A stretch of DNA of 64,000 nt, taken from positions 154,194,001-154,258,000 of the forward strand of contig OZ024741.1 in NCBI GenBank assembly GCA_964016885.1, read 5' to 3'. The notes beneath the pieces are model-generated. The model had not been told where the DNA came from, did not search any database, and saw nothing but the letters and a program-made list of their open reading frames with translations. The DNA is from Eledone cirrhosa. Taxonomy: Eukaryota. Shown here in pieces: positions 6,458 through 60,500 of the stretch. Each line of letters opens with the position of its first letter. The first letter of the stretch is position 1. The position numbers and the translations under genes were made by a program.

Positions 6458-6785
6458 ATATGAAAGACGTAAAATAAGAAAATTTTAAAAATTAAAAATT
6501 AACTTACTTACTAAAATTTTCACTCCAACTAATTAGTTTCTGTAAGGGAATAAATATAGTTACGTAATGTAACTATAGAGAAGTCCTTACGTCATCAGTG
6601 ATGGAGTGAAAATTTTAGTAAGTAAGTTAATTTTTAATTTTTTAAAATTTTCTTATTTTACGTCTTTCATATAATTGTTCTGCATCCCCCTGCATAGAAC
6701 CACAAAGGTACTAAGACATAACATATATATTTGCTAGCATGGGTATACATCTGTATACATATGTTGGTAGATATACTAATTCTCT
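6458..6785. mobile_element. Inverted-repeat cassette (~70-bp arms) with a degenerate hammerhead between (TA)n tracts
   Basis: tgaaagacgtaaaataagaaaatt...ttttcactcca / tggagtgaaaatt...ttttacgtctttca; tail on the right. Confidence 0.65.
6521..6608 (-). ncRNA. Degenerate type I hammerhead inside an inverted repeat
   Basis: Minus: CUGAUGA c GUAAGG...(nested hairpin)...CCUUAC a GAA ACUAAUUAGU U GGAGUG. Stem III is palindromic; the stem I register is off by 4 nt. Confidence 0.6.
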
Positions 6786-7298
6786 ATATATAATATATAT
6801 ATAATATATATATAAGTATGTATATATATGTATGTATATATATATATATATAATATAAATATATATATATGTATGTATATATATATATATATAATATATA
6901 TATATAATATATATATATATATAAGTATGTATATATATGTATGTATATATATATATATATATATATATATATATATATATATATATATATATGAGAGTAT
7001 TTTATAATTAGAATTACACACAAGGTTTTTCAAAAGGGGATTTTTCAGGATTTAAAAAAATATAAATATTTTAGCCGAAAATGTTAGGTAATATTTTAAC
7101 TGAAAATATGTTGCCATTGTTGTTTACCTTGGATATCTATGTTTCTGGCATTTGTCAACAAAGATATATTTTTAGTAACATTTTCTTGTATATGTGATAT
7201 TAAAAAATAAAAATATTGCACAATTTATTTGAAAGTTATTATTATCATCATATTGTTTGTAAATGTTGGATTTGTTTTTTAGCAGCATGGTGTATAAA

Positions 7299-57500: not shown

Positions 57501-60500
57501 AAGATGTATTTCTCATAGCCTAATTAGTTAAAAGGAAAAATGCATGTATTCTAGCCTAATATGTCAATTCATATTAAAATTAATTCACTTATATACTAAT
57601 TAAAGTTAAAATAGGCATAAAAGTTATGATGAAAAATATTATAATACTTATTTGTTCTATTTACCTTGTTAACGATTTAAAAATAAAATAGCTAAAAACT
57701 ATATATAAAGAAATTTTATATTACTTATTTAATAGTCTATGAAACGTTTAACTAAACTTATGAAGACAAGAACTAAAGGTTTCCGAGCATTTATTTATAA
57801 TTAATTGCCTATTATGAATCATGTGGAAAATCTCTGCAGTACAGAGGTCACATCCCTTAGATATAGATGCATTTTCATCAGGCAAAGCACGAGAAAGTTT
57901 CTGCCAAGAAAGAGAATATTTAATATTAATATTTTTAAGCGACCAAATCAATTCAGAGAGAGCTGTACTAAATCTTTTCTTTTCTTTTGAATGAGTGGTG
58001 ATGGTTATACCACCTTTCTTTAAATTGTTTAATTCCAAGATTTCTATTGTTAATTTTAGCTATATTTTGGGCAATATTTTTACTAGTCGAGTAGGAATGT
58101 TTAATTTTGTGTCAGTTAAAGATTTTACTGTATTTATGTGATCTAAAAAAGCATTTATCAAGTACGTTAAAGAAAAAAACTAGCTAAGTTCTTCTTAATT
58201 CCAATAGATGTTGGTGGATTATACCACAGAACAGAGTGGAATTGAACCCTCTTATGTGACTTATTGGTTGTATAGGAGTTTAGGAGTTATATCCATTTGA
58301 AATCTGATTTGTCCCAACTCTATAGTTCATATATATATATATATATATATATATATATGTATATATATATGTATATATATATATGTATATATATATGTAT
58401 ATATATATATGTATATAAAAGGTAAACAGAAATAACAACACAATCGGTACAGTATATGGAAGGGATATATTAGGTTAACGCTTGATATAGCAGGAAGAGG
58501 GTCTTAACTTTTCAGACGCTAGTCCTTCATCAGAAGAAAGAATGAGAAATAGGATAGATTGAGGCGACATACACACACAAATGGTGAAGAAAGGAGCTGA
58601 TATTCATACCAGATCAAGGAAACTGCTTCCATTGATACTATCTATCAATTATAATTCTGGCTAAAAGGAAGCGAGATTTGAACTCAGAATTCACAGAGCT
58701 GAATCAGATATTGGAAAGCCTTCCCTCCATCATCATTTTTCCTGCTTGCAAGGGTGGGATGGGAACTGATTCTGGCTTGATTTCTACAGCTGGATGCCCT
58801 TCCTAACACCAACCTCATTTACAGTGAGTGCTGGGTGCTTTTTTGCTGTGGCACCTCCACGACCACTTTGCAGTGGAATGATAGGAACCCCAGTCCCTAT
58901 CATCTCATTTCTACAGCTGAGTAAACTGGAGCAATGTGAAATAAAGTGTCTTGCTCAATGAAACAACACATCACCCGGTCTGAGAATTGAACTCACAACC
59001 TTTCGATTGCAAGGCTAATGCTCTAACCACTAAGCCATGTACCTCCATCTCTTTAACAATTCCTCCAATCCCCCACCCCTGTTGGACTGCTACATTATTT
59101 ATCGACTATGAAAGCCTGAAAGGCAAAGTTAACCCTGGTGGAATTTGAACACAAAGCACAGAGAGCTGGAACAAATACCAAGCCATTTAATCTGATACTC
59201 TAACAACTCTACCAATTCGCCACCTATAAAACTACAGACAATAAAATGCTTTGAGGACCCCCCACCCCACCCTCGAGAATAAAGAATGTAGATGTTAGTT
59301 AGCATTACTAATAACAAATAAAATAAACAAATACCAGTAATTATTTAGCCTTGCTTATCTAAATATTCAGGCGAAGCTGATAGACTATATAAAAGACATT
59401 GCAACTATATGTAGACTGAGCTGAGCAGCTGCTTTTTTAAAGAAGTTATTATAGACAACAATCTTTCTTCAGATAAGTTTAAACATCCTGTAATGATTTA
59501 GCAGAAAATATCTAAAATTGGTTTTCTTAATTCAAATGTTTATAGTATCTTTAAGAGTGGACAGATTGCTGGGAAACATTCCAGAGTTGAGACATTGATC
59601 TTTAATGTAGTCATAGTACTGTTTTATACTTTTCAAGAATGTTTTGCTAATGTGGTTTGTTAATGCAAATATCTATAGTATCTTACCATACTGAAGTTTC
59701 AGATGATGATACTTCTCATGAGGGTGCTTGGCTATTCTAGTGCCTCACTATCACTCACAGTAATGCTGTGAGTGTCTTGATCAACCTCAAAACTTTGAAT
59801 GCAACACCAGCATACTTTGTTGAGTGTGTAATTGAGTGTGCATGTATTCTATCATTTACTTTCATTCTTGTATCTGATAACATTTACTGATATTTTTCTT
59901 TTGTAAATCATATCAATGAGATTGGTAAATTTGAAAATATATTCACCACAATGCAGATAACTATAATAATAATTGATAACTAAAATCAAATAGTTTAATA
60001 AATTGAGTAAAGTACCTCTAGAAATGGAAAAAAGTAGATGGAGATGCTTTCAATGAATTAAATTGTGGTTATATGTACAAGATGTTGATAAAATGGAATA
60101 AATAATTTATATGCTCAATAAAATGTGTGTGTGTGAGCACTCACCCTAGCATGACCTCAGCCCGTAAAAGATACAAAAAAAGATACTGTCATTTTAGCAA
60201 GGTAATTTTATGGTATTCATTTAATCCTCAGCTTATAATAGATGTTAATATGGTTGATTAACATGGCATCAGAACATTCCAGTGTATATTTTATCAAACT
60301 TTCAATTATCATTATTATTATCATTTTGTTTGTTTACACAATCAACTTCAAGCAAAATAAAACTTAAAAGATTATTGAACATTTCGTTAGGTTAACATAT
60401 ATTCTGGCTTTGCCCTTTCACTCTATTAAATGTAAGCAGTTAATACTTCAATAGAGACTCTCCTAACATTCCTTTGGCAGATGAAAGATATTAGAAGAGG

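What the first reader, a model, noticed from the sequence alone, without database searches (positions are those of the whole stretch)
6458..58540. Recurrent cassette: hammerhead ribozyme at the junction of a head-to-head inverted repeat, inserted in (TA)n
Seen: eight loci carry full or half hammerhead cores (6521, 23654, 24751, 37586, 41081, 41624, 50283, 58502), mostly from unrelated sequence families. Six lie in or between inverted arms of about 20-200 bp, usually with a tail on one arm only. All are at or within about 120 bp of a (TA)n tract. Known: Penelope-like elements and retrozymes carry minimal type I hammerheads, Penelope insertions often have inverted pseudo-LTRs, and some Penelope-like clades favour microsatellites. 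Inference: these are a diverse set of ORF-less, ribozyme-bearing, (TA)n-targeting retroelements whose cDNA synthesis folds back near the ribozyme. A GIY-YIG Penelope-like remnant at 57.7-58.3 kb is the kind of element that could mobilise them. I cannot tell from here whether these families are already catalogued.
Basis: partly seen in the sequence, partly recalled or inferred. Interest (0 to 1): 0.85.

Follow-up and report, generated by a model that had tools for sequence, protein, structure and literature searches.

The report
Two-armed Penelope ends carrying hammerheads
These ribozyme-bearing cassettes are the ends of Penelope-type jumping genes and of small non-coding repeats that likely hitch-hike on them; their mirror-image shape likely comes from copying one RNA from both sides of a DNA cut, and in the commonest family both copies stop at one spot that likely marks where the element's own RNA begins.

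Summary
All eight cassettes are real multi-copy insertions beside (TA)n; six have inverted arms with a one-sided tail. They are not one kind of element. A, E and G are tandem, non-coding retrozyme-type repeats (539, 708 and 470 bp). D and F are ends of protein-coding Penelope-like elements (D: a complete Hydra-clade parent; F: Neptune-like). B and C share D's tail motif. H is a solo 3' end.

Fold-back is refuted. In G the arms end at two fixed sites, junctions fall anywhere in the unit, and 20 of 44 inverted arms cannot have been copied from the tail arm. That fits priming from both nicked strands.

The junction sits at the ribozyme only in B and D (probably C). There both arms stop at a sharp edge about 30 nt behind a TATA-like box. 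In D, long arms come in pairs, so the edge likely marks the transcript's 5' end rather than an RT stall.

The architecture is known; I found no paper giving this mechanism. The scan noted the same features on other DNA of this genome. No RNA evidence was obtained.

The parts
6457..6787 (.). Cassette A: two-armed insertion of a 539-bp tandem retrozyme-type family. Tail-less arm (minus sense, about 6457-6599) carries the hammerhead (about 6520-6598); the tail arm (plus) starts at about the cleavage site and ends about 106 nt further into the unit.
   Evidence: ends read output, approximate
23570..23798 (-). Cassette B: head-to-head mini-cassette; both arms start at the 5' strand of stem I; tail on the left (about 23570-23648) carries the bulged-hairpin motif shared with C and D.
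24716..24884 (+). Cassette C: decayed hammerhead (core at 24757; one core base changed, intact in sister copies), 22-bp inverted arm, tail with the shared hairpin motif.
   Evidence: ends approximate
37509..37678 (-). Cassette D: head-to-head mini-cassette of a Hydra-clade Penelope-like element; holds only the 3' half of a U3-A8 hammerhead; the inverted arm reaches the putative transcription start; tail about 37509-37585.
43746..43787 (.). Further fragment of the D family (one short arm) between (AG)n and (TA)n.
41021..41383 (+). Cassette E: 5'-truncated single unit of a very young 708-bp tandem retrozyme-type family; hammerhead 41085-41203 with a long stem II insert; no inverted arm.
41408..41791 (-). 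Cassette F: two-armed 3' pLTR of an ORF-bearing Penelope-like element (RT plus C-terminal GIY-YIG, Neptune-like zinc-finger linker); hammerhead core at 41663 in the tail arm; tail about 41408-41462.
   Evidence: left end approximate
50061..50650 (.). Cassette G: two-armed insertion of a 470-bp tandem retrozyme-type family; tail-less arm (minus, 50061-50390) carries an intact minimal hammerhead (50289-50319); tail arm 50386-50650.
58418..58566 (-). Cassette H: solo 5'-truncated 3' end (hammerhead 58506-58533) of a longer element of which about 800 nt are shared among copies; no ORF found.
   Evidence: right end approximate
57165..58328 (-). Broken Hydra-clade Penelope-like element: GIY-YIG remnant (about 57740-58328; stops, frameshifts and a ~280-bp deletion) plus its own pLTR with a mutated hammerhead (57200-57258).
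   Evidence: ends approximate

Best explanation
The cassettes are ends of Penelope-like elements and of tandem non-coding hammerhead repeats, likely written into (TA)n by a Penelope-type enzyme that nicks both strands and likely primes two cDNAs on one RNA at two fixed internal sites, which are then joined head to head. Shown: two fixed outer ends per family, one per arm (their distance is the tail); independent junctions; non-nested arms; both arms of the same subfamily. Inferred: in the tandem families (G, A) the template is multimeric or circular, so arms stop anywhere and can exceed one unit. In B and D the template is mostly a transcript that starts inside the pLTR, about 30 nt behind a TATA-like box: at stem I in B, inside loop II in D. 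The RT start sites lie only about 60-140 nt from that RNA's 5' end, so both cDNAs likely run off it and give a short palindromic 'strong-stop-like' cassette centred on the ribozyme. Read-through RNAs give long, paired, ORF-bearing arms.
For: G: 44 of 62 informative loci have an inverted arm (45 of 63; one near-duplicate removed; 7 of 70 loci ran off the fetched edge). 29 of 33 visible outer ends lie at unit positions 398-403 and none at the tail end (470). 20 of 44 inverted arms cannot be copies of the tail arm. Junctions are uniform over the unit (16 of 90 ends in the ribozyme region, 19 expected; KS p=0.40). Private variants are fixed in all units of both arms in 7 of 34 loci. D: 65 of 72 inverted arms end at one site; 68 of 177 arm 5' ends lie in a 9-nt window against 7 in the 54 nt upstream; 22 distinct junctions among 23; TATA-like box at -29 or -31 and Inr-like motif at +1 in 9 of 9 long arms. 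25 of 75 insertions with a long arm have two long arms (4-8% expected if arms passed a barrier independently), and 1 of 72 short tail arms has a long partner. Complete parent L380 with pLTR-ORF-pLTR, the RT start sites lying in its 5' leader. B: 0 of 33 tail arms and 2 of 22 inverted arms pass upstream of the edge; a TATA-like box lies 30-31 nt before it in 15 of the 16 long copies scored, of 24. In vitro, an anole Penelope protein nicks and extends both strands from two internal sites that delimit the tail (PMC11167929).
Against: No RNA data support the start site, expression, cleavage or circles. D's TATA-like bases also form stem II, so they could be conserved for pairing. No clear cap-derived extra G (8 of 40 edge arms, most explainable by microhomology). 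B long copies showed no ORF within 1.5 kb, and a second long arm in at most 1 of 24 loci, so pairing of long arms is shown for D only. Long inverted D arms over 200 nt were not counted. In G, arms of one locus are usually no closer to each other than to the nearest other locus (8 of 32), so a single-molecule template is not proven. PMC11167929 saw no strand difference in RT start site, so the strict one-tail rule is not explained by it. Mobilising partners of A, E, G, H, B and C were not identified. E shows no inverted arm in 16 of 16 loci and H in 1 of 24.
Confidence: 0.6

Rival explanations
1. Same two-strand priming, but the B/D edge is a reverse-transcriptase stall or a nuclease cut at the folded ribozyme, not a transcription start.
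For: The edge lies inside (D) or at the 5' strand of (B) a structured RNA. A weak cluster of D ends at the cleavage site (15 ends in 11 nt against 12 in the 18 nt before, p=0.047) shows that RNA processing can set ends. A molecule-wide fold or cut would also couple the two arms.
Against: The edge falls at different ribozyme positions in B and D but at the same distance from a TATA-like box. G, A and F ribozymes cause no such edge. Independent stalling is rejected by paired long arms.
Confidence: 0.22
2. Fold-back or self-priming near the ribozyme makes the inverted arm (the first reader's model; self-priming on an antisense template was proposed in PMC3846280).
For: Many junctions are short palindromes or overlap by 1-9 nt. 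In B and D the two arms are largely nested. Both arms of a copy share subfamily variants (2.3 against 9.1 mismatches per 39 nt).
Against: 20 of 44 G inverted arms and 16 of 72 D inverted arms reach sequence absent from the tail arm. Some arm pairs do not overlap at all (L031, L037). Both outer ends are fixed and abut the TA target.
Confidence: 0.07
3. B, C and D mini-cassettes are self-propagating SINE- or MITE-like families, copied whole from a few masters.
For: Very high copy number (55,198 tail-motif matches). One B junction form recurs in several copies. No ORF parent was found for B or C.
Against: 22 of 23 D junctions differ. 47 of 67 short D copies carry a subfamily tag seen in long copies. 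The tail is on one side only, which a DNA-transposon model does not explain.
Confidence: 0.08
4. Assembly artefacts or chance hairpins in an AT-rich genome.
For: The sites lie in low-complexity DNA; the relaxed descriptor is only about twofold above shuffles. No read support could be obtained.
Against: Thousands of dispersed copies with fixed ends against 0-11 control matches; arm divergence; compensatory stem changes.
Confidence: 0.02

Closest known systems
Hydra clade of C-terminal EN+ Penelope-like elements (PMC8557442; passages, section 11 and supplement look-ups read)
   Same: Single ORF with RW[K/R], DKT, CxCx5C linker, no CCHH, CxxC and CxH motifs; hammerhead in the pLTR; (TA)n insertions (D parent L380; the 57.7 kb family shows the EN-side motifs).
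   Different: D has a U3-A8 core and about ten times more ribozyme-bounded mini-cassettes than long copies. Its hammerhead differs from the listed Hydra-1_oBim one, and five diagnostic motifs from my loci were not found in the supplement, a sixth only inside an unrelated coding sequence.
EN+ PLE insertion architecture: inverted 5'-truncated copy, one-sided tail (PMC8557442, PMC3846280; passages read)
   Same: Head-to-head arms, palindromic junctions, tail on one arm, Inr-like motif in the pLTR.
   Different: Tails here are about 55-106 nt (30-40 described). The counts argue against the self-priming model proposed in PMC3846280.
Poseidon_Ac in vitro (PMC11167929; parts 1-2 of 4 read)
   Same: Both strands nicked and extended; two internal RT start sites delimit the tail; uncleaved RNA is the main template.
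   Different: Other clade; no strict pairing of one start site per arm, and no run-off at a natural RNA 5' end, was described in the parts read.
Metazoan non-LTR retrozymes (PMC7229834, passages; bioRxiv 10.64898/2026.07.22.740005, part 1 of 5 and passages)
   Same: Non-coding tandem units each with a type I hammerhead; proposed PLE origin.
   Different: Units of 470-708 bp. G and A carry PLE insertion marks (two arms, tail, TA target), for which term look-ups in those papers found no description. Circular RNA not tested here.
Minimal PLE hammerheads (PMC4209133; passages read)
   Same: Short palindromic stem III; U3-A8 variant; opposite-strand pairs 100-700 bp apart ascribed to truncated PLEs.
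   Different: D and E have long stem II inserts; D's ribozyme is split by the putative start site.

Membership tests
Hydra-clade PLE (D parent) | Single ORF under 3 kb, RT followed by C-terminal GIY-YIG | tested here: met
   718-aa ORF between two pLTRs in L380. Pfam gave no hit for it; domains were read from motifs.
Hydra-clade PLE (D parent) | RWK-type and DKT motifs; CxCx5C linker; no CCHH; CxxC and CxH near the C-terminus | tested here: met
   RWR, DKT, CxCx5C, CxxC, CxH found; definition.
Hydra-clade PLE (D parent) | Hammerhead in pLTR and (TA)n insertion | tested here: met
   U3-A8 type I motif in long arms; TA at both ends of most copies.
Hydra-clade PLE (D parent) | Placement in the Hydra clade on an RT tree | not tested
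Hydra-clade PLE (57.7 kb remnant) | CxCx5C linker, GIY-YIG without CCHH, pLTR hammerhead | tested here: met
   Sister copies; weak Pfam GIY-YIG hit, E 0.003, below cutoff.
Neptune-clade PLE (F parent) | C-terminal EN with CX2-5CxxC linker and CCHH | tested here: met
   Read from ORFs in L216-L230 and L280-L292; RVT_1 E 7e-5, below cutoff. Nematis not excluded; no tree.
Non-LTR retrozyme (A, E, G) | Tandem short units, each with a type I hammerhead | tested here: met
   470, 539 and 708 bp periods.
Non-LTR retrozyme (A, E, G) | No coding capacity | tested here: inconclusive
   No ORF of 110 aa or more over the window cassettes; whole units were not scanned on their own.
Non-LTR retrozyme (A, E, G) | Transcribed, self-cleaved and circularised RNA | not testable with these tools
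   No RNA data could be examined.
Type I hammerhead ribozyme | Conserved core with three stems kept by compensatory change | tested here: met
   G: a stem II pair switches A-U to U-A in a major subfamily; 6 of 14 pairs change on both sides, most from one divergent relative. D: U3-A8 with free position 7; 31 of 100 listed D cores have an unpaired C3/A8.
Type I hammerhead ribozyme | Self-cleavage | not testable with these tools
   Needs in vitro transcription, as monomer and dimer.
EN+ PLE insertion footprint | Inverted 5'-truncated copy and one-sided tail | tested here: met
   A, B, D, F, G. Not met for E (0 of 16); rare for H (1 of 24).

The most novel reading that the evidence does not exclude
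Penelope-type enzymes copy one RNA from both nicked strands at two fixed sites, one per strand. Because Hydra-clade mRNAs start inside their own pLTR ribozyme, the commonest product is a strong-stop-like palindrome whose centre records the transcription start, about 50,000 times in this genome. Starting inside the ribozyme would also leave the mRNA's 5' copy unable to cut itself while the 3' copy stays whole. The same two-headed reaction run round a retrozyme circle would give the multimeric mirror arrays.
Probability: 0.4. Interest if true: 0.75.

Novelty: new variant of a known kind. Interest (0 to 1): 0.52.

Why it matters
How Penelope-like elements, the closest relatives of telomerase RT, make their inverted repeats and one-sided tails is an open question (PMC8557442, PMC3846280, PMC11167929). 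These families give a genomic test at scale. It argues against self-priming, fits two-strand priming, ties animal retrozymes to the same machinery by footprint, and predicts an exact RNA 5' end and two RT start sites. An intact 718-aa parent ORF (L380) is at hand for an assay. The tiny palindromes also add tens of thousands of potential hairpin RNAs and are easily misfiled as MITEs or SINEs.

Tried and rejected
Rfam was swamped by microsatellite matches to miRNA models and the repeat finder by TA arrays; a self-BLAST was used instead.

Empty-site test, to decide whether (TA)n pre-exists or is made on insertion: 50 of 52 insertions tested, 4 gave candidates, none a true empty allele; undecided.

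Sequencing runs: no RNA holder listed; no reads could be laid, so there is no read support either way.

Cap-derived extra G: inconclusive. Cleavage-site cluster: weak. A splice acceptor as the cause of the D edge was considered and rejected, because arms keep bases upstream of the candidate site.

The first B sample and first G sample were biased by a query that held the junction and were not used for junction counts. The first two E mappings used a wrong unit and were replaced. No ORF parent was found for B or H; C's was not sought. Pfam found no family for the D parent.

A last script to fix cassette ends to the base was not run; those ends are read.
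Full report
SETTING. The window lies at G000:C2:154194001-154258000 in a 3.0-Gb genome. It is 31.7% GC and rich in TA arrays, and holds a tyrosine-kinase exon at 29809-30135. 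That the animal is an octopus is my guess from recall and from an earlier scan note; I did not test it. I label the cassettes A (6521), B (23654), C (24751), D (37586), E (41081), F (41624), G (50283) and H (58502).

OBSERVATION. The cores, the six inverted pairs and the TA neighbourhood are as described. In-window statistics are moderate. A strict descriptor gave 5 hits against a shuffled mean of 0.57, only 3 of them cassettes. A relaxed one gave 15 against 7.7 and missed five cassettes. Rfam scored only G, below its gathering score, among the 150 of 247 rows shown. Family evidence is much stronger. G's tail end joined to TA occurs 1,980 times against 0 controls. The motif shared by B, C and D occurs 55,198 times against 1; a shorter pattern for the B/C form gives 5,539 against 11. 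A, B, E, F and H each gave matches for all 40 candidates scored. G's stem II switches an A-U pair to U-A in a major subfamily. On 10 chosen variants, 6 of 14 pairs change on both sides, most of them from one divergent relative, and related sequences can beat the shuffle control without structure. D keeps a U3-A8 core with a free position 7 in 7 of 9 long arms, a variant already in print (PMC4209133).

WHAT THE CASSETTES ARE. Three are tandem repeats without a long ORF in the window: G (470 bp), A (539 bp) and E (708 bp, many copies identical over 201 bp). They fit non-LTR retrozymes except that circular RNA could not be tested. [quoted passage not shown] D is the pLTR end of a Hydra-clade element. 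L380 is a complete copy, pLTR, 718-aa ORF, pLTR, with the clade's motifs (definition). B and C share D's tail motif, and one B copy carries a D tail (L334/L335), which suggests shared machinery. B's long copies share up to about 400 nt upstream with no ORF found. H is a solo truncated end of an element sharing about 800 nt, without an ORF found. The 57.7-58.3 kb remnant is a second, broken Hydra-type family with its own mutated hammerhead at 57200-57258.

HOW THE ARMS ARISE. For G I took the first 70 tail-end matches on contig C1, chosen without regard to the junction. Seven ran off the fetched edge before any junction, and two (L060, L061) are near-duplicates counted once here. 44 of 62 have an inverted arm; up to 5 of 18 apparent solos have a stub of one. 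The other arm ends at unit position 398-403 in 29 of 33 visible cases and never at the tail end (470). Both arms can be multimers. Junction ends are uniform (16 of 90 in the ribozyme region, 19 expected; KS p=0.40; duplicate included). 20 of 44 inverted arms are too long or too far upstream to be copied from the tail arm, and some pairs do not overlap. Fold-back cannot give this. Priming of both nicked strands at two fixed internal sites can, and both activities are shown in vitro for an anole element (PMC11167929). Seven of 34 loci have private variants fixed in every unit of both arms, as expected from one circular or homogeneous template. However, arms were closer to each other than to the nearest other locus in only 8 of 32, so one molecule is not proven. 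A shows the same two ends, about 106 nt apart, with variable junctions (20 best-matching loci, two pairs of them overlapping). E shows no inverted arm in 16 of 16.

WHY THE RIBOZYME SITS AT SOME JUNCTIONS. I mapped 105 distinct D tail motifs from all fetched DNA; 72 had an inverted arm within 200 nt (longer ones are missed), 65 of them ending at one site. Of 177 arm 5' ends, 68 lie within 9 nt around an Inr-like motif in loop II, 7 in the 54 nt upstream, 9 far upstream, and the rest downstream. 22 of 23 readable junctions differ, so these are independent events. All 9 long arms have a TATA-like box 29 or 31 nt before that site, though those bases also pair in stem II. Genome-wide, the 5' core occurs 4,629 times against roughly 50,000 D-type tails (exact patterns, lower bounds). 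Among the first 100 listed cores, 25 of 75 insertions have two long arms, against 4-8% if arms passed a barrier independently, while 1 of 72 short tail arms has a long partner. Arm length is therefore set by the template. B repeats the edge: in 33 unbiased copies no tail arm and 2 of 22 inverted arms pass it. It lies at the start of stem I, 30-31 nt behind a TATA-like box in 15 of the 16 long copies scored, of 24. B did not show paired long arms. C ends near stem I in the few copies seen (not counted). My reading, inferred: these pLTRs are internal promoters, as in Drosophila Penelope (PMC2377424) and as suggested for rotifer elements (PMC3846280). The mRNA leader holds both RT start sites (L380), so the usual product is a short run-off on each strand. 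A stall or cut at the ribozyme remains the main rival. The cluster at the cleavage site is weak (p=0.047) and the cap signature inconclusive.

TAIL SIGNAL. Following earlier scan notes, I folded the RNA behind each end. D has a bulged hairpin behind the long end (one read-through copy, L344); behind the short end the shared motif has the same complementary stems, although the lowest-energy fold there was a different one. B and C fold the same hairpin about 12 nt into the stretch folded behind their short end. G, A and F do not show it.

COMPARISON WITH PRINT. Inverted truncated copies, one-sided tails, TA bias, non-autonomous PLEs and Hydra elements, including one from an octopus, are described in PMC8557442 (passages, section 11, supplement look-ups). 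Opposite-strand hammerhead pairs are in PMC4209133 (passages). Retrozymes and their proposed PLE origin are in PMC7229834 (passages) and 10.64898/2026.07.22.740005 (part 1 of 5 and passages; its supplements are closed and may bear on this). PMC3846280 (passages) proposes self-priming. PMC13282606 (passages) counts Penelope families in an octopus and has no mention of ribozymes in its main text; its library was not seen. Eight searches listed no paper holding 'twin priming' with pseudo-LTR, or 'strong-stop' with Penelope-like, among the rows shown. The library lacks most subscription papers, and Dfam and Repbase were not available, so the families may be catalogued. The scan's own notes describe the two-arm retrozyme model, the start-inside-ribozyme idea and the twin hairpins on other DNA of this genome; a look-up by D's sequence found nothing. 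I had reached the first two before looking (notes). Those notes are not independent evidence.

VERDICT. Real, and of known kinds in its parts. What remains of interest is a countable genomic footprint that separates models of Penelope retrotransposition and predicts an exact RNA start. It rests on DNA alone.

Noticed in passing
A, B and H family loci (e.g. L199, L203, L126, L150): Tail ends are often followed by short (CT)n or (CA)n runs that extend the last 2-3 template bases before (TA)n; possibly reiterative, telomerase-like synthesis at priming.
   Followed up: no
G000:C1 listing: 31 of 100 listed D cores have C3 opposite A8, an unpaired and probably dead ribozyme, yet that subfamily amplified.
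   Followed up: no
L334/L335: B cassette with a tail on both arms, one of them a D-family tail joined at the shared hairpin motif.
   Followed up: no
L026-L028 (G000:C3 near 77.33 Mb): G array alternates full and internally deleted units with a 902-bp period, as from a dimeric template.
   Followed up: no
window 37007-37261 and 9566-9677: Older imperfect inverted repeats without a visible hammerhead; possibly MITEs.
   Followed up: no
window 2737-4947 and 10487-13402: Two or three related LINE fragments with RT ORFs (RVT_1, E 3e-33), 86-89% identical.
   Followed up: partly
window 29809-30135 (minus): Tyrosine-kinase exon (Pfam PK_Tyr_Ser-Thr); Fer/Fes-like by recall. The cassettes probably lie in its introns.
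   Followed up: partly
window 21579-22478, 28000-28345, 55138-55625: Minisatellites of 76, 48 and 25 bp.
   Followed up: no
L305 about 1740-2390: Another two-armed insertion between TA tracts, of a family not studied, directly behind an E copy.
   Followed up: no
window 58976-59043 (minus): Weak tRNA match (28.7 bits, gathering 29), possibly a SINE head.
   Followed up: no
L082:425-479: A divergent relative of the G hammerhead with several compensatory stem changes; a further family.
   Followed up: partly
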